From Escherichia coli (lineage in GTDB: Bacteria; Pseudomonadota; Gammaproteobacteria; Enterobacterales; Enterobacteriaceae), in the NCBI RefSeq assembly GCF_050920415.1, contig NZ_CP169309.1: DNA of 64,000 nucleotides; one strand, given 5' to 3'. Below are positions 4,432 through 54,950 of this stretch, one piece after another (position 1 is the stretch's first letter; each line of letters opens with the position of its first letter). Below the pieces are notes generated by a model that was given only the letters and a program-made list of their open reading frames with translations, searched no databases and was not told where the DNA came from. The position numbers and the translations under genes are program-made.

Positions 4432-5928
4432 ATGGCTCACCCTCATTTATTAGCGGAAAGAATTTCCCGCCTGAGCAGTTCGTTGGAAAAGGGGCTTTAT
4501 GAACGTAGCCACGCCATCCGCTTGTGTTTATTAGCGGCATTAAGTGGTGAAAGTGTGTTCCTCCTTGGCCCGCCAGGCATTGCCAAAAGTTTGATCGCCC
4601 GGCGCTTAAAATTCGCCTTTCAGAATGCCCGTGCGTTTGAATATCTGATGACCCGCTTCTCCACGCCGGAAGAAGTTTTTGGTCCCCTTTCCATTCAGGC
4701 GCTAAAAGATGAAGGGCGCTATGAACGTTTAACCAGCGGTTACCTGCCAGAAGCAGAAATCGTCTTTCTGGATGAGATCTGGAAAGCGGGCCCGGCAATT
4801 CTTAATACCTTGCTCACCGCCATTAACGAGCGCCAGTTCCGCAACGGTGCACACGTAGAAAAAATCCCGATGCGTCTGCTGGTGGCGGCCTCCAACGAGC
4901 TGCCGGAAGCAGACAGCAGTCTGGAAGCGTTATATGACCGCATGCTGATTCGTCTGTGGTTAGATAAAGTGCAGGATAAAGCGAATTTCCGCTCCATGCT
5001 GACCAGTCAACAGGATGAAAATGACAATCCGGTTCCTGCCTCCTTGCAGGTCACTGATGAAGAATATGAACGCTGGCAGAAAGAGATTGGTGAAATTACG
5101 CTGCCCGATCATGTATTTGAGCTGATTTTTATGCTGCGCCAGCAACTGGATAAATTACCGGATGCGCCTTATGTCTCGGATCGTCGCTGGAAAAAAGCGA
5201 TCCGCTTATTGCAGGCCAGCGCCTTTTTTAGCGGTCGCAGTGCTGTTGCCCCGGTAGATCTCATTTTGCTGAAAGATTGCCTGTGGTATGACGCGCAAAG
5301 CCTGAATTTGATACAACAACAAATTGATGTATTGATGACCGGTCATGCCTGGCAACAGCAAGGGATGTTGACCCGCCTGGGCGCGATTGTGCAACGTCAC
5401 CTGCAACTACAGCAGCAACAAAGCGATAAAACAGCCTTAACGGTAATTCGTCTGGGCGGCATTTTCAGCCGTCGTCAGCAGTATCAACTCCCTGTTAACA
5501 TTACTGCTTCCACTCTGACTCTGCTGCTGCAAAAACCGTTAAAACTGCATGATATGGAAGTGGTTCATATCTCCTTTGAGCGTAGCGCGCTGGAACAGTG
5601 GCTGAGCAGAGGTGGTGAAATTCGCGGCAAACTGAACGGTATCGGCTTTGCCCAGAAACTGAATCTGGAAGTTGATAGCGCCCAACATCTTGTCGTACGC
5701 GATGTAAGTTTACAAGGCAGTACGCTGGCACTTCCCGGTTCATCGGCTGAAGGTCTGCCAGGTGAAATAAAACAACAACTGGAAGAGCTTGAAAGCGACT
5801 GGCGCAAGCAACACGCTTTATTCAGCGAACAGCAAAAATGTCTGTTTATCCCTGGCGACTGGTTAGGTCGCATTGAAGCCAGCCTACAGGATGTCGGCAC
5901 CCAGATTCGCCAGGCACAACAATGCTAA
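4432..5928 (+). CDS. ravA: AAA+ MoxR-family ATPase RavA
   Basis: Walker A GPPGIAKS; recalled protein starts [14 protein letters not shown], 8 codons inside tracked ORF 4408..5928; overlaps viaA start as in the ravA-viaA operon. Confidence 0.9.
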
Positions 5929-7373
5929 CGCTGGATACGCTTAATGTGATGCTGGCCGTCAGCGAAGAGGGATTGATCGAAGAGATGATCATCGCGCTGC
6001 TGGCCTCACCGCAGCTGGCAGTCTTCTTTGAAAAATTCCCACGACTGAAGGCGGCAATCACTGATGATGTTCCCCGCTGGCGTGAGGCGCTGCGCAGTCG
6101 GCTGAAAGATGCCCGAGTCCCGCCGGAACTCACCGAAGAGGTGATGTGCTATCAGGAAAGCCAGCTCCTCTCCACGCCGCAGTTTATTGTGCAGCTACCA
6201 CAGATCCTGGACTTACTGCATCGTCTGAATTCCCCATGGGCAGAACAAGCCCGACAGTTGGTTGATGCTAACAGCACGATCACTTCAGCGTTACACACAC
6301 TTTTTCTCCAGCGTTGGCGTTTAAGTCTGATCGTGCAAGCAACGACGTTAAATCAACAGCTATTAGAAGAAGAACGCGAACAACTGTTGAGTGAAGTTCA
6401 GGAACGCATGACGCTGAGCGGGCAACTTGAACCGATTCTCGCAGATAATAATACCGCAGCTGGTCGTCTGTGGGATATGAGCGCCGGTCAGCTTAAACGT
6501 GGCGACTATCAGTTGATTGTGAAATACGGTGAATTTCTTAACGAACAGCCGGAACTGAAACGACTGGCAGACCAACTGGGGCGTTCCCGGGAAGCCAAAT
6601 CGATACCCCGTAACGATGCGCAGATGGAAACCTTCCGTACCATGGTGCGCGAACCGGCGACCGTTCCTGAGCAGGTTGATGGACTGCAACAAAGCGACGA
6701 TATTTTACGCCTTCTACCACCGGAATTGGCGACGCTGGGGATAACGGAACTGGAATATGAGTTTTATCGTCGGCTGGTGGAAAAACAATTGCTCACCTAT
6801 CGCCTTCACGGTGAGTCGTGGCGTGAAAAAGTTATCGAACGCCCGGTAGTTCATAAAGATTACGACGAACAGCCGCGCGGACCGTTTATTGTCTGCGTGG
6901 ATACTTCCGGCTCAATGGGCGGCTTTAATGAACAGTGTGCGAAAGCGTTCTGTCTGGCATTGATGCGCATAGCCCTCGCTGAAAATCGTCGCTGCTTTAT
7001 TATGTTATTTTCCACCGAGATCGTCCGTTATGAGCTTTCAGGCCCACAAGGCATCGAACAAGCAATCCGTTTTTTAAGCCAGCAGTTTCGTGGCGGTACC
7101 GATCTTGCCAGTTGTTTCCGCGCCATTATGGAACGCTTGCAAAGTCGGGAGTGGTTTGACGCCGATGCGGTGGTGATTTCTGATTTTATCGCCCAGCGGT
7201 TGCCTGACGACGTGACGAGCAAAGTGAAAGAGTTGCAGCGGGTACATCAGCATCGCTTTCATGCCGTGGCGATGTCGGCACATGGCAAACCCGGCATCAT
7301 GCGCATTTTCGATCATATCTGGCGCTTTGATACCGGGATGCGAAGCCGCCTGCTCAGACGCTGGCGGCGATAA
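5922..7373 (+). CDS. viaA: VWA-domain protein ViaA (RavA partner)
   Basis: 483 aa ORF overlapping ravA stop by 7 nt; C-terminal von Willebrand A-like region (VCVDTSGSM). Confidence 0.9.
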
Positions 7374-7377
7374 ACAA

Positions 7378-8370
7378 TTACAGCAGAGAAGGGACGCTCT
7401 CGCGAACAGCTGCCGGCCATACACCACACTGAACCTGGCCGATATGTGGCAGTTGCAGCAGCAGCATGGTCAAACGAGACTGCCCGATACCGCCGCCGAT
7501 GGTCTGCGGCATTTCACCGCGCAGCAGCGCCTGATGCCACTCCAGCTGCAGACGATCTTCATCACCGGTCAGCGCCAGCTGATGTTTCAACGTATCGGCA
7601 TCCACGCGGATCCCCATGGAAGAAAGCTCAAACGCATCTTCCAGTACCGGGTTCCATACCAGAATATCGCCGTTCAGACCCGCATGGCCCAGCTCTGACG
7701 GGGTGCTCCAGTCATCATAATCCGGTGCGCGCACGTCGTGACGATGACCATCACTCAACTTGCCGCCAATCCCGACGAGGAATACAGCGCCAAGATCTTT
7801 CGCAATCGCCCGCTCACGTCCTTTGGCATCGAGATCCGGATAACGAGCCAGTAACTCCTGGCTGTGTACGAAGTGGATCTGATCCGGCAGGAACGGTGCC
7901 AGGCCAAACTCTTCGCTAACTGCAGCTTCGGTTGCTTTAATTCCCGCCCAGATCGCCTCTACCGTGCTTTTCAGAGTCGAGAATTGACGCTCGCCGTCGC
8001 CCATTACGCGCTCCCAGTCCCACTGGTCTACATAGATCGAGTGCAGCGGGGAAAGACGGTCTTCATCGGGGCGAAGGGCTTTCATGTGCGTGTATAGCCC
8101 TTCGCCCGCGCTGAAGTCATGTTGCCCTAAGGTCTGACGTTTCCACTTCGCCAGTGAATGAACCACTTCGAACTGGGCATCAGGCAGAGCTTTCACTTTT
8201 ACCTGCACCGCTTTTTCACAGCCCGACAAGTTATCCTGCGTGCCATCCCCCACACGGCTAAGAATCGGCGCCTGGACTTCGATCAGCCCCAGACGTTCTT
8301 CCAGTTGACGAGAAAAGTGAGATTTCACGAAGCTAATTTGACGTTGTTTGGCAATGTAAGCGGTTTTCAT
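7378..8370 (-). CDS. asnA: Aspartate-ammonia ligase (asparagine synthetase A)
   Basis: 330 aa [53 protein letters not shown]; divergent from asnC. Confidence 0.95.
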
Positions 8371-8521
8371 TTTTTATACTCCTGCGTCCTGTTGCTTATG
8401 ATTAAGCAACAAAAACCGACACACATGCAATAATCATTCAATAAAAAGCCTCACACACTTTTGATTCATTAAAAAAGAAGGCTAAAATAGAGTGATTCTT
8501 CAATCTGCATAAGAAAATCCT

Positions 8522-8980
8522 ATGGAAAATTATCTGATCGACAATCTGGACCGCGGCATCCTGGAAGCATTAATGGGTAATGCGCGTACCGCTTACGCCG
8601 AACTGGCGAAACAATTTGGCGTCAGTCCGGGGACGATTCACGTTCGTGTAGAGAAAATGAAGCAGGCGGGGATCATTACCGGGGCACGTATTGATGTCAG
8701 CCCGAAGCAGCTCGGTTATGACGTAGGCTGCTTTATCGGCATTATATTAAAGAGCGCCAAAGACTATCCTTCCGCGCTGGCAAAGCTGGAAAGCCTCGAT
8801 GAAGTCACTGAAGCCTATTACACAACTGGCCACTACAGCATCTTTATCAAAGTGATGTGCCGTTCGATCGATGCTCTCCAGCATGTACTTATCAACAAGA
8901 TCCAAACAATTGATGAAATTCAGTCCACTGAGACACTGATCGTCCTGCAGAACCCGATCATGCGTACCATTAAGCCATGA
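8522..8980 (+). CDS. asnC: Lrp/AsnC-family transcriptional regulator AsnC
   Basis: 152 aa ORF with N-terminal HTH; divergently arranged with asnA. Confidence 0.95.
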   Translation: MENYLIDNLDRGILEALMGNARTAYAELAKQFGVSPGTIHVRVEKMKQAGIITGARIDVSPKQLGYDVGCFIGIILKSAKDYPSALAKLESLDEVTEAYYTTGHYSIFIKVMCRSIDALQHVLINKIQTIDEIQSTETLIVLQNPIMRTIKP

Positions 8981-9069
8981 TCGGCTTTTTTAATCCCATA
9001 CTTTTCCACAGGTAGATCCCAACGCGTTCACAGCGTACAATACGCCACTCTTAATAAAGGTGGCGGTTT

Positions 9070-9513
9070 ATGGCAGATATCACTCTTATCAGCGGCAGCA
9101 CCCTCGGCGGTGCCGAATATGTAGCAGAACACTTGGCTGAAAAGCTGGAAGAGGCGGGTTTTACCACCGAAACGCTGCACGGTCCGCTGTTGGAAGATTT
9201 ATCTGCCTCGGGGATCTGGCTGGTTATCAGCTCAACCCACGGTGCCGGAGATATTCCGGACAACCTTTCTCCTTTCTATGAAGCATTGCAGGAACAGAAG
9301 CCCGATCTTTCTGCGGTCCGCTTTGGCGCTATCGGTATTGGCAGTCGTGAATATGACACCTTTTGTGGGGCTATCGATAAACTCGAGGCAGAACTCAAAA
9401 ATTCCGGTGCAAAACAGACAGGCGAAACACTGAAGATCAACATCCTTGATCACGACATTCCGGAAGATCCGGCAGAAGAATGGCTGGGATCGTGGATTAA
9501 TTTACTCAAATAA
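9070..9513 (+). CDS. mioC: Flavodoxin-like FMN protein MioC
   Basis: 147 aa ORF MADITLISGSTLGGAEYVAEHLAEKLEE; transcribed toward oriC. Confidence 0.9.
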   Translation: MADITLISGSTLGGAEYVAEHLAEKLEEAGFTTETLHGPLLEDLSASGIWLVISSTHGAGDIPDNLSPFYEALQEQKPDLSAVRFGAIGIGSREYDTFCGAIDKLEAELKNSGAKQTGETLKINILDHDIPEDPAEEWLGSWINLLK

Positions 9514-52476: not shown

Positions 52477-53648
52477 ATCGTTCGGAAAGCAATATTAAAT
52501 GCTTTTTTAAAGATTATAAATTACGTAAGAATTTTAATGTTTAAAAAAGGCTTGAGGAATAACAGGAATACTAACAATAAAGCGAAGCCGCGTCTGACAG
52601 TCAGAATGCGGCTTCGATACAGAAGCTGGAAAATCGAGCTAACTCGTTAATCTATCAGCGATACGTTGCCTTGAAAACATGGCTATGGGCACATTCAAGG
52701 ACACAAAAACCATTTTGTTCACAATGGCTGGTGGAACCACGGTTAAAACCATCACTCTATGAGGGCTTAGGGAAGTTCAGCTTTTATTGCAGATGTTCCC
52801 ATAATGGCAATAGCTTTTGTCAATGAATCGAGCCTCCTGAATAACTGAGCGGGCGATTTTATGCAGCGCGCATAGCTCCTTGATATGAGGCGATAAGCAT
52901 AGTTTTTGCGTACTGACTTGCGCTATAGTCCCCACGTTGCGGCAAAACCGCAACCGGAATTGGCGTTCCGAATTATCACGAGTGTCGGTAGCGATGTTTG
53001 CAGTGCTACTGGCGCGGCCTGCGCTCGCCCCTTCAATGGTGGCTCAGGCAGGGGCTTCGAAAGAAGCGCCGGGTCGTGATAACCGGTACGCCAACCCTGT
53101 CTGGGTCACCACCAGTGAGCCAGGCGTCTCCGGTGGTGGCGTTAACCTGCTTATCACGAAGCGGAGCGTTGCGTATGTGTCCTGTCCCTGAATTTCCCAT
53201 TGCACCAGCCTCCGCCGGAGGTATCTATGAAAATCACCGTAGAACAACCCTCAGCCAGAGAACTAGTCGATCGCTCGCGAGTCCTGGTGCATGTGATGCT
53301 CGAGCATCCTGACGATATCGGCCCGAATTATGCGTTGCTTCTCATCCTCGCCGACCAGCTACAACTATTAAGGGATGCTTTTGAAGAGGATGAGGTCAGA
53401 CGGCTTAGAGATGAGAAATTACCTCAGTAATTCTTACTGCGACCACAGCATCAGGGACAGATGTTGTGGTTGATTCCCCCACCTGCTTTTCCCTGGCTGG
53501 CTCCCCCATATTCTCTGAGGTGAATTCCATGAGCACAGCAATGGCGCGGGTTGAAAGGGCATCCCCCATCTTTCGCTGTTAAAGGTGAATAATGTGGGGG
53601 GAGTCGAGTACCTGTCAGTGTATCCCCCACATATTCCGGGTTCCACCA

Positions 53649-54950
53649 TCATTCCCCCGTATCCGGGAGCCGGATCTGTTCTCCATCGAGCACAATCAGT
53701 TGCTCGCGCAGCAGCTTCTCCAGCCAGCGCGAAAATTTCTTCTCGACGTTAATTCCCTTTGCGCGTAGATCGTCGCGCAAGAGCGCGCGGGTACAAGGCT
53801 TATTCTGGCTGATGCGTTGGTTAATACAGCGCCATAACGCCGTATGGTTGCGGGTGATATGAGGAACGTCGGGTGGTATGCCACTACTCAGTAAGTCATC
53901 GTCAGGTTGCCTAGGCTCGTCATTCAGCACCATTGAGGTCACTGGTTCGCCATCGCTATCGGTATAGATAACGACTTCCTCAAGATCGTAGGCGGTGACC
54001 TCCGGCATCTCCGCATCTTTCATCTTTGTACAACTCAGGGTGATAGCGTTGCGACGTCCCTCGCGCCTGACGTTAAACTCGGCATCCAGCGCAGCCTGAA
54101 AAGCACTTGAACCGCGTGCGCCCCGTTCCTGATCCTTACCCGAATGATGAACGATCATCATCGCTGCGCGCGTATGATACCGAATGGCGTCGCAACCCTA
54201 GATAAATGCGCCCATATCCCGCGCGGTGTTTTCATCTGAATTACCAAAACAGCGGGCCAGCGTATCGAGGATGATCAGCCGTACCGGCATTCCGGTCATG
54301 TTCTGAATGTCCTTTGCCGCCAGGATCACCTGCTCGATGCTTCCTGGAGCGGCTGGAAAGATCGGGCAGTCGACGCGAAACAGGTTATCGAGCGCCATCT
54401 CGTCATTAACGCTGAGTTCCCAGGCGCGGATCCGCCGCGATACACCGGTTCCTCCTTCTCCGGCGATAAACAGCACTGCTCCTTGATTGACTCGCCTTCC
54501 ACCCCATGACGTACCGCTTGCAATATGGCACGCCAGCGATACTGCCAGAAAGGATTTAAAACAGCCGCCGGGGCCGTAAATACTGCACAGCGTCCCGGCG
54601 GGAATAAGTCCTTTCACCAGATAATCCTGACTGGTGTTAAACCCTTCCGAGCCCCGGCGCAGCGGAAGGGTGGTGGTGAGAGTACGGTCTGATGCTGTCA
54701 TAGCTTACGACCTGAGATTTGCAGGAAGCTGCTGGTTGAACACAATCCGGGAAATGGATTCACCGTAGTGACGGTAAAATTCATCCCAGTCGCTCAATGT
54801 GGTGTCTGCAGGGAGAACCACACAGCCCTTCACTACCTCGGCAGCGGCGGTTGCATTCAGCAACCCGGTATTTTTCTCCTGACTGCAATCATTATCGCCA
54901 GCCAGGATAAGGTGGCATTCAGGCCACTGCGCCCGGAAAGCGATGGCCAC
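53649..54950 (-). pseudogene. P4 alpha-like primase/helicase remnant (Toprim + RecA-like/AAA_25 ATPase), 5-prime truncated and broken by in-frame stops
   Basis: Three same-frame ORFs: 54705..54950 (Toprim-like HLILAGDND), 54198..54701 (P-loop GPGGCFKS, Walker B LIILD) and 53649..54161 (HHSGK motif); they are separated by a TAA at 54705..54707 and a TAG at 54198..54200, and no N-terminal primase domain is present. Confidence 0.65.

What the first reader, a model, noticed from the sequence alone, without database searches (positions are those of the whole stretch)
53649..54950. Primase/helicase gene reduced to fragments by two in-frame stop codons and loss of its 5-prime end
Toprim-like, P-loop and HHSGK-containing segments lie in one frame on the minus strand but are separated by an in-frame TAA (54705..54707) and TAG (54198..54200). 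The first break (TAAGCTATG) could alternatively be a natural gene boundary; the second falls between the Walker B region and the HHSGK motif of a single ATPase domain and is hard to read as anything but a nonsense mutation. No N-terminal primase catalytic domain is present upstream. This supports the view that the element no longer replicates autonomously.
Basis: seen in the sequence. Interest (0 to 1): 0.5.

Follow-up and report, generated by a model that had tools for sequence, protein, structure and literature searches.

The report
Decayed primase and helicase genes
This is the broken replication module of a small E. coli genomic island: the primase gene lost its front two-thirds in a deletion and the separate helicase gene next to it carries one nonsense mutation, which is ordinary gene decay already flagged in public annotation.

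Summary
On the minus strand, a Toprim-like segment, a P-loop segment and an HHSGK segment share one frame, interrupted by TAA (54705-54707) and TAG (54198-54200).

These are two genes, not one.
- **The TAA is a natural stop.** It ends a P4-alpha-type primase gene of 327 codons. All eight intact relatives have a stop there, then 2, 3 or 11 nt, then the ATG of a stand-alone 348-350 aa RepA/AAA_25 helicase.
- **The TAG is a real nonsense mutation.** It is CAG to TAG at helicase codon 168. That codon is CAG in the six close relatives compared as DNA. The TAG is present in independent assemblies, so it is not a sequencing error.
- **The 5' loss is a 1,571-bp deletion.** It lies between two copies of CAACCGCGC. 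It removed the upstream Integrase_1 gene and primase codons 1-221 and broke codon 222, taking the zinc ribbon and the EGYA of the EGYATA motif.
- **The island's own integrase is frameshifted.**

The ~6.7 kb island between mnmE and tnaC has therefore lost its replication and integration genes, while its retron cargo is intact. RefSeq already marks the helicase as a pseudogene with an internal stop. This is an ordinary finding of low interest.

The parts
53649..54701 (-). Pseudogene of a stand-alone RepA/AAA_25-family replicative helicase (350 codons plus TGA stop), interrupted at codon 168
   Evidence: Pfam AAA_25 at E 7e-42. RSF1010 RepA 1G8Y at E 2.5e-9 and top Foldseek hit 1NLF. Intact 345-368 aa homologues are common. 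RefSeq marks it 'helicase RepA family protein, internal stop'.
54198..54200 (-). TAG nonsense codon (helicase codon 168, CAG to TAG), between Walker B and the HHSGK motif
   Evidence: The codon is CAG in six close relatives. The residue is Q in 10 of 11 aligned homologues and E in one. The identical TAG context is in three other assemblies.
54705..55022 (-). 3' remnant of the primase gene: codons 223-327 of 327, plus its natural TAA stop at 54705-54707. It keeps the DxD region (GDNDCS) of the Toprim fold but lacks the zinc ribbon and EGYA of the EGYATA motif.
   Evidence: The remnant's protein sequence is identical to the RM9088 primase C-terminus. Pfam Toprim_3 at E 2.3e-6. The intact relative aligns to P4 alpha residues 4-307 at E 1e-48. 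Every relative has a stop codon at this position.
55016..55024 (-). Deletion junction: the single surviving copy of the 9-bp direct repeat CAACCGCGC
   Evidence: RM9088 has the 9-mer at L002 6430-6438 and 8001-8009. The window sequence matches the left flank up to the repeat and the right flank after it. The 9-mer occurs exactly twice, 1570-1580 bp apart, in all six intact close relatives.
55042..55172 (-). EFASI RNA motif. It normally sits just upstream of the Integrase_1 gene; here it is fused, 18 nt later, to the primase remnant.
   Evidence: Rfam RF02957 at 90.2 bits. It holds the same position upstream of Integrase_1 in L002, L003, L005 and L006.
53475..53665 (-). Cluster of TGGGGGA-type repeats overlapping and following the helicase stop codon; a candidate iteron origin of the element
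   Evidence: Four of the window's eight exact TGGGGGA sites fall within 155 bp, all on the minus strand. The G5A blocks are conserved in relatives of about 77% identity while the spacers diverge. The origin function is inferred, not shown.
57998..59217 (-). The island's P4-type tyrosine integrase, split into 105-aa and 259-aa ORFs by a 1-nt deletion near 58910
   Evidence: Alignment with the intact 407-aa RM9088 integrase. RefSeq marks it 'frameshifted'.
55775..57906 (-). Intact retron St85-family cargo. Components: msr 57837-57906, STnc400 57710-57834, effector 56710-57672, reverse transcriptase 55775-56710.
   Evidence: Rfam hits, ORFs and RefSeq names.
52923..53430 (+). Convergent C4-type antisense RNA module and small ORF belonging to the same conserved island core. 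Components: a1b1 targets 52923-52974, C4 RNA 53032-53116, 67-aa ORF 53227-53430.
   Evidence: Rfam hits. The same order is seen in L002, L003 and L006.

Best explanation
The region is the decayed replication module of a ~6.7 kb integrative island inserted between mnmE and tnaC.

**Intact form.** The module is one co-oriented gene string.
- An EFASI RNA comes first.
- An Integrase_1-domain gene (291 aa) follows.
- Next is a P4-alpha-type primase of 327 aa with a zinc ribbon and an EGYATA/Toprim domain.
- A separate 350-aa RSF1010-RepA-like hexameric helicase follows, with a predicted C-terminal three-helix plus hairpin domain.
- A cluster of TGGGGGA repeats comes last.

**Two lesions in this window.**
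1. A 1,571-bp deletion between two pre-existing copies of CAACCGCGC (slippage or microhomology recombination). It removed the Integrase_1 gene and primase codons 1-221 and broke codon 222. The remnant therefore lacks the zinc ribbon and the catalytic glutamate of EGYATA.
2. A C-to-T change made helicase codon 168 (CAG, Gln) into TAG. This cuts the RecA-like core after Walker B. It removes the HHSGK motif, the remaining core strands and the C-terminal domain.

**Other points.**
- The TAA at 54705-54707 is the primase gene's natural stop.
- The island's P4-type integrase also carries a 1-nt frameshift.
- The island has therefore most likely lost both self-replication and integrase-mediated excision. 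It is inherited vertically, and its retron cargo remains intact.

**Shown versus inferred.** The lesions, the ancestral states and the family assignments are shown. Loss of replication, the origin role of the repeats and the slippage mechanism are inferred.
For: **Two genes are the normal state.**
- L003 and L004 have a 324-aa Zn_Ribbon_Prim+Toprim_3 gene followed by a 348-aa AAA_25 gene.
- L011, L014 and L015 have primases of 327-330 aa followed by a 350-aa helicase. In L013 the 350-aa helicase follows a truncated 222-aa Toprim gene.
- S. houtenae has the same gene pair, and RM9088's primase is an open 327-codon ORF.
- Stand-alone helicases of 345-368 aa are the closest homologues.
- Junctions are TAG+2 nt+ATG in five relatives, TAA+3 nt+ATG in the window and S. 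houtenae, and TAA+11 nt+ATG in L003/L004.

**The nonsense mutation.**
- Codon 168 is CAG in six close relatives.
- RM9088 carries a different stop, W66*.
- The exact 167-aa fragment is on 98 contigs, and the index lists it in 119 blocks of the collection.
- The TAG and the deletion junction are identical in three independent assemblies.

**The deletion.**
- Window 55646-55016 matches L002 5808-6438, and window 55024-52936 matches L002 8001-10088.
- The 9-bp repeat sits at both ends of the missing segment.

**Family assignments.**
- The primase aligns with P4 alpha residues 4-307, including EGYATA.
- The helicase matches RSF1010 RepA by sequence and by predicted fold.

**Relaxed constraint in this lineage.** The window lineage has 4 missense changes against 8 synonymous, compared with 1 against 21 in the other lineages (Fisher p = 0.04). 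Two of the missense changes (S47C in the P-loop, L257M) are at positions invariant in 30 homologues.

**Other.** The integrase frameshift is shown. RefSeq gives the same pseudogene calls.
Against: - Nothing in the data contradicts this reading.
- No expression or replication data exist for this island, so loss of function is inferred from sequence.
- The primase remnant shows no missense change, and the helicase still has mostly synonymous divergence. The lesions are therefore recent, and residual activity of fragments cannot be formally excluded.
- The relaxed-constraint test is weak (p = 0.04 on small counts).
Confidence: 0.93

Rival explanations
1. A single fused P4-alpha-like primase-helicase gene was broken by two in-frame stop codons.
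For: In the window the three pieces share one frame. A minority of more distant homologues do carry Toprim_3 or a zinc ribbon fused to AAA_25 (P0023, P0024, P0068, P0106).
Against: - All eight intact relatives of 77-98% identity have a stop codon at this junction followed by an ATG.
- In seven of them the helicase is a full 348-350 aa. RM9088 has its own separate stop at codon 66.
- In six of the eight the two ORFs are in different frames.
- P4 alpha's helicase part has no significant similarity to this helicase (E 0.1).
Confidence: 0.02
2. The TAG is a sequencing or assembly error and the helicase is really intact.
For: It is a single-base difference (C to T) from relatives.
Against: - The same TAG context and deletion junction are present in a Logan assembly and two NCBI assemblies besides the complete genome NZ_CP169399.1.
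- The exact 167-aa product is recorded on 98 contigs, and the index lists it in 119 blocks of the collection.
Confidence: 0.01
3. The broken state is retained because a fragment has a function. One possibility is that the 167-aa Walker A/B fragment, or the surviving repeats, interfere with incoming related elements. Another is that immobilising the island is itself selected.
For: - Inactivation is recurrent in E. coli copies. This lineage has Q168*, RM9088 has W66*, and YZ22PE67 has a split primase.
- The broken island is widespread within one lineage.
- The retron cargo stays intact in the window.
Against: - The pattern is what neutral decay of a fixed, vertically inherited island predicts.
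- The lesions differ between lineages and hit different genes.
- The window lineage accumulates missense changes at invariant positions.
- In sublineages L009 and L010 the retron effector is itself truncated.
- The TAG cuts the RecA core in the middle of a predicted helix, so a stable fold is unlikely.
Confidence: 0.04

Closest known systems
RSF1010 RepA hexameric replicative helicase (PDB 1G8Y, 1NLF, 1OLO; Pfam AAA_25)
   Same: - RecA-type core with the same order of Walker A, Walker B and the HH(S/A)xK motif.
- phmmer E 2.5e-9 over residues 26-197.
- Best Foldseek match for the modelled intact relative.
- Stand-alone helicase gene.
   Different: - Only about 19% identity.
- This family carries an extra C-terminal domain of about 70 aa (three helices plus a hairpin in the model) that RepA lacks.
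- It is chromosomal-island-borne, not plasmid-borne.
- The window copy is a pseudogene.
Primase domain of satellite phage P4 alpha protein (residues 1 to about 310; zinc ribbon plus EGYATA/Toprim)
   Same: - The intact relatives' 324-327 aa primase aligns end to end with P4 alpha residues 4-307 (34% identity, E 1e-48).
- The alignment includes CPxCGGxDRFR...CNxCG and the EGYATA motif.
- P4 alpha is the closest bona fide phage match.
   Different: - In P4 the primase is fused to an unrelated helicase and an origin-binding domain in one 777-aa protein.
- Here the primase is a separate gene followed by a RepA-type helicase.
- The window keeps only the part equivalent to P4 alpha residues from about 221 to 307.
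Primase plus replication-helicase modules of phage-inducible chromosomal islands and P4-like satellites (own knowledge; not tested here)
   Same: - Small integrase-bearing island.
- Co-oriented primase and helicase genes followed by repeats.
- An AlpA gene sits upstream in the more distant relatives L003/L004.
- A C4/CI-type antisense RNA is present.
- Variable anti-phage cargo.
   Different: - No capsid-redirecting or packaging genes (sid, psu, delta, terS) were seen in any locus examined.
- The C4 RNA is convergent with the replication genes rather than upstream of them as in P4.
- Helper dependence is untested.
RefSeq/PGAP annotation of the identical sequence (E. coli MFDS1022581, NZ_CP169399.1)
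   Same: It calls 'helicase RepA family protein' a pseudogene with an internal stop at the same coordinates. It also calls a separate 'toprim domain-containing protein' and a frameshifted integrase.
   Different: - PGAP extends the Toprim CDS to 55106, into the EFASI RNA and past the deletion junction, so its first 28 residues are not primase sequence.
- It does not record the deletion.

Membership tests
RepA/AAA_25 replicative helicase family | Significant match to the AAA_25 profile and to RSF1010 RepA | tested here: met
   Pfam AAA_25 at E 7e-42 over residues 18-192. 1G8Y at E 2.5e-9. Foldseek top hit is 1NLF.
RepA/AAA_25 replicative helicase family | Walker A, Walker B and the HHxxK motif in order | tested here: met
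   GPGGCFKS (43-50), RLIILD (141-146) and HHSGK (185-189) align with RepA's motifs. The P-loop Ser47, invariant in 30 homologues, is Cys here.
RepA/AAA_25 replicative helicase family | Uninterrupted reading frame encoding the whole ATPase core (a functional member) | tested here: not met
   TAG at codon 168 where relatives have CAG. It is a pseudogene of the family.
P4-alpha / TraC-type (EGYATA) primase | N-terminal zinc ribbon (CPxCGG...CNxCG) | tested here: not met
   Present in relatives. Deleted in the window, where homology starts at 55024.
P4-alpha / TraC-type (EGYATA) primase | EGYATA motif carrying the Toprim glutamate | tested here: not met
   Relatives read ITEGYATALAV and P4 alpha reads IAEGYATALTV. 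The window reads LCPTALAV, so only T-A survives.
P4-alpha / TraC-type (EGYATA) primase | Toprim DxD region | tested here: met
   GDNDCS is retained, and Toprim_3 matches at E 2.3e-6 from model position 10 onward.
P4 alpha bifunctional primase-helicase (single polypeptide) | Primase and helicase in one ORF, with a helicase homologous to that of P4 alpha | tested here: not met
   All close relatives have two ORFs separated by a stop codon. The helicase compared with P4 alpha gives E 0.1, with only the P-loop matching.
Phage satellite (P4-like or PICI) | Genes for helper exploitation or packaging, and helper-induced excision and replication | not testable with these tools
   No sid, psu, delta or terS-like genes were seen in the loci examined. 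Induction cannot be tested here.

The most novel reading that the evidence does not exclude
Independent knock-outs of the replication module recur in E. coli copies of this island family: Q168* plus the 1.57-kb deletion here, W66* in RM9088, and a split primase in YZ22PE67. These may reflect selection to immobilise a defence-carrying, satellite-like island while keeping its cargo. Alternatively, the surviving TGGGGGA repeats and the P-loop fragment may act as decoys against incoming related elements. Either would differ from plain neutral decay.
Probability: 0.07. Interest if true: 0.35.

Novelty: already known. Interest (0 to 1): 0.12.

Why it matters
It matters little beyond correct annotation.
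- It shows that this mnmE-tnaC island is a fixed remnant whose retron is now ordinary chromosomal cargo.
- It corrects the idea of a fused primase-helicase gene.
- It supplies a clean example of a deletion between 9-bp direct repeats, with the undeleted parent structure available in six relatives.
- Intact relatives in Citrobacter, Klebsiella, Enterobacter and Salmonella define the core of a little-described island family. That core is EFASI RNA, an Integrase_1 gene, a P4-type primase, a RepA-type helicase, G-rich repeats and a C4 RNA. The family shuttles varied defence cargo and could be worth a separate look.

Tried and rejected
- **Conserved (programmed) TAG.** Rejected: RM9088's 'internal stop' is at a different codon (66), and codon 168 there is CAG.
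- **Shared frame as evidence of one gene.** Rejected: the spacer is 2, 3 or 11 nt in relatives. My interim view that the shared frame is unique to the window was also wrong, because S. houtenae has a 3-nt spacer too.
- **AlpA lost in the deletion.** I first assumed this from the more distant L003. The closest relatives have no AlpA between Integrase_1 and the primase, so the deletion removed Integrase_1 and the primase 5' part only.
- **RM9088 primase reported as fragmentary by PGAP.** It is an intact 327-codon ORF.
- **NCBIfam.** No useful family for either protein.
- **PDB sequence search for the primase.** Nothing found.
- **Literature searches.** Searches for EGYATA and for an mnmE defence hotspot returned nothing relevant. 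The EGYATA literature is therefore cited from my own knowledge only.
- A first breakpoint script failed for lack of an exact anchor, and a first primase-remnant codon comparison was out of frame. Both were redone.

Full report
**Observation**

Three minus-strand ORFs lie in one frame. They are 54705..54950 (81 aa), 54198..54701 (167 aa) and 53649..54161 (170 aa). They are separated by TAA at 54705-54707 and TAG at 54198-54200.

With codon 168 restored, the last two ORFs form a 350-aa protein. It matches Pfam AAA_25 at E 7e-42 and RSF1010 RepA at E 2.5e-9. The upstream piece matches Pfam Toprim_3 at E 2.3e-6. The TAG lies between Walker B and HHSGK. The description is accurate.

**Context**

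The window is E. coli chromosome and is 100% identical to strain MFDS1022581. The region belongs to a ~6.7 kb island between mnmE and tnaC, flanked by an imperfect 25-nt direct repeat at 52685-52709 and 59405-59429.

Read on the minus strand, the island contains the following:
- a P4-type integrase;
- a retron of the St85 family (msr, STnc400, effector, reverse transcriptase);
- an EFASI RNA at 55042-55172;
- the Toprim remnant;
- the helicase;
- a G-rich repeat cluster;
- a convergent 67-aa ORF and a C4-type antisense RNA.

RefSeq already annotates the helicase as a pseudogene with an internal stop, the Toprim piece as a separate protein, and the integrase as frameshifted.

**The TAA is a natural gene boundary**

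Intact relatives were recovered from several sources.
- Two Logan contigs at about 77% nucleotide identity (L003, L004) carry Integrase_1, AlpA, a 324-aa zinc-ribbon-plus-Toprim primase and a 348-aa AAA_25 helicase.
- Relatives of 96-98% identity at the same mnmE site (L011, L014, L015, S. houtenae L016, and RM9088 apart from its helicase stop) share one layout. A 291-aa Integrase_1 gene overlaps (ATGA) a 327-330 aa primase gene, which is followed by a 350-aa helicase gene. L013 has a truncated 222-aa Toprim gene in front of the same 350-aa helicase.
- Every one has a stop codon at the position of the window's TAA, then an ATG.
- The spacer is 2 nt in five relatives, 3 nt in the window and S. 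houtenae, and 11 nt in L003/L004.

The shared frame is therefore incidental. Stand-alone helicases of 345-368 aa are the closest homologues in a 5.8-billion-protein search. Fused forms appear only among more distant hits.

**The TAG is a nonsense mutation**

Codon 168 is CAG in RM9088, L011, L013, L014, L015 and L016. The residue is Q in 10 of 11 aligned homologues.

RM9088, the only other copy among 5,426 complete E. coli genomes, is also annotated 'internal stop'. Its stop is at codon 66 (TGG to TAG), an independent event.

The window's TAG is not an error.
- The exact 167-aa product is recorded on 98 contigs, including E. coli M863 and 1.2741.
- The index lists it in 119 blocks of the collection.
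- Three independent assemblies carry the identical TAG context and deletion junction at 99.97% identity or better over 12.5 kb.

In an AlphaFold model of an intact relative (mean pLDDT 78.6), residue 168 lies in helix 156-177 in the middle of the RecA-like core. The truncated product would lose the HHSGK strand, four further core strands, and a C-terminal three-helix plus hairpin domain at residues 284-344. The model's best PDB match is RSF1010 RepA.

**The missing 5' end is a repeat-mediated deletion**

Window 55646-55016 aligns with RM9088 (L002) 5808-6438. Window 55024-52936 aligns with L002 8001-10088. The two alignments overlap by nine bases, CAACCGCGC. This 9-mer is present in RM9088 at 6430-6438 and at 8001-8009, and once in the window at 55024-55016. 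It occurs exactly twice, 1570-1580 bp apart, in all six intact close relatives.

The window has therefore lost 1,571 bp. The deletion starts 18 nt after the EFASI RNA and 35 nt before the Integrase_1 start codon. It ends in primase codon 222, inside the EGYATA motif (GAA GGA TAT G|CA ACC GCG). The remnant corresponds to primase residues 223-327.

The intact primase aligns with P4 alpha residues 4-307 (34% identity, E 1e-48), including the zinc ribbon and EGYATA. The Toprim-like piece is thus the tail of the catalytic primase domain itself. From my own knowledge, EGYATA is the motif shared by P4 alpha and the plasmid primases TraC and Sog. I could not retrieve that literature here.

The helicase, by contrast, is unrelated to the helicase part of P4 alpha (E 0.1).

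**Age and constraint**

The 105 retained primase codons carry no missense change relative to relatives, so the deletion is recent.

In the helicase, changes unique to the window lineage are 8 synonymous, 4 missense and the nonsense codon. The other five lineages together have 21 synonymous, 1 missense and 1 nonsense (Fisher p = 0.04). Two of the window's missense changes, S47C in the P-loop and L257M, are at positions invariant in 30 homologues. This is modest evidence for relaxed constraint after inactivation.

**Other lesions**

The island's integrase has a 1-nt deletion near 58910, which splits it into 105-aa and 259-aa ORFs. The retron is intact in the window. In two related assemblies (L009, L010) its effector is truncated to 121 aa.

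**Interpretation**

The module normally supplies a primase and an initiator-type helicase. These presumably act on the TGGGGGA repeat cluster just downstream. That origin role is inferred.

In this lineage the primase is catalytically dead, the helicase is truncated, the Integrase_1 gene is gone, and the island integrase is frameshifted. The island has most likely lost both replication and excision and is inherited vertically. The headline of a single gene with two in-frame stops does not.

**Comparison and novelty**

The helicase is a pseudogene member of the RepA/AAA_25 family. The primase remnant is a fragment of a P4-alpha-type primase. The module resembles the replication modules of phage satellites, but no packaging or capsid-redirecting genes were seen, so satellite membership is untested. 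The pseudogene status is already in RefSeq. This is ordinary decay of a mobile element and of low interest.

Noticed in passing
window 55042-55172 (-); L002 6282-6412; L003 7661-7791; L005 7129-7259; L006 7131-7261: The EFASI RNA motif, whose function is unknown according to Rfam as quoted in PMC12370729, lies immediately upstream of the Integrase_1-domain gene in every related locus examined. Its 3' end is about 50 nt before that gene's start codon. It looks like a 5' leader of the Integrase_1-primase-helicase gene string. In the window the deletion starts 18 nt after it.
   Followed up: partly
window 53475-53665 (-): A cluster of TGGGGGA-type repeats overlaps and follows the helicase stop codon. 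Four exact copies lie within 155 bp, with further near-copies and one inverted copy. The repeat blocks are conserved in relatives of about 77% identity while the spacers diverge. This is a candidate iteron origin that has outlived its initiator genes.
   Followed up: partly
L002 (E. coli RM9088) 8323-9375: The only other copy of this helicase among 5,426 complete E. coli genomes is also a pseudogene, through an independent nonsense mutation (W66*, TGG to TAG). PGAP reports its primase as fragments, but it is an intact 327-codon ORF (L002 7337-8320).
   Followed up: yes
window 52685-52709 and 59405-59429: An imperfect 25-nt direct repeat (ATGGGCACAxxxxAGGACACAAAAA, 88% identical) flanks the island just downstream of mnmE and upstream of tnaC. 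These are candidate attL/attR cores for a P4-type integrase that targets a site beside mnmE rather than a tRNA gene.
   Followed up: partly
window 55647-58013; L002 4055-5807; L005 631-6357; L013 1934-5383; L014 629-5369: The slot between the island integrase and the EFASI RNA holds different cargo in each relative. Here it holds a retron St85. L005 has a reverse transcriptase with a phosphoribosyltransferase-like protein. L014 has HamA with a DEAD helicase and a metallo-beta-lactamase-fold protein. L013 has an HTH/Peptidase_M78 protein and an FRG-domain protein. A second variable slot lies beyond the helicase (HNH plus AAA ATPases, an OLD-family nuclease, a KAP NTPase, CdiI with an RNase). 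The island family behaves as a carrier of defence-type cargo.
   Followed up: partly
window 55775-57906 (-); L009 and L010 3031-3396: The retron (msr, STnc400, 320-aa STM3845-family effector, 311-aa reverse transcriptase) is intact in the window. In two otherwise 99.97-99.99% identical assemblies the effector is truncated to 121 aa by an indel, so decay continues within the lineage.
   Followed up: partly
window 52994-53191 (+) versus 53032-53116 (+): The ORF that some annotations call 'ash family protein' (Pfam Phage_ASH) overlaps the C4-type antisense RNA on the same strand. The protein call may be a translation of an RNA gene.
   Followed up: no
window 54705-55106 (-): RefSeq's 133-aa 'toprim domain-containing protein' starts at 55106 with ATT. 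It runs through part of the EFASI RNA and across the deletion junction, so its first 28 residues are not primase sequence.
   Followed up: partly
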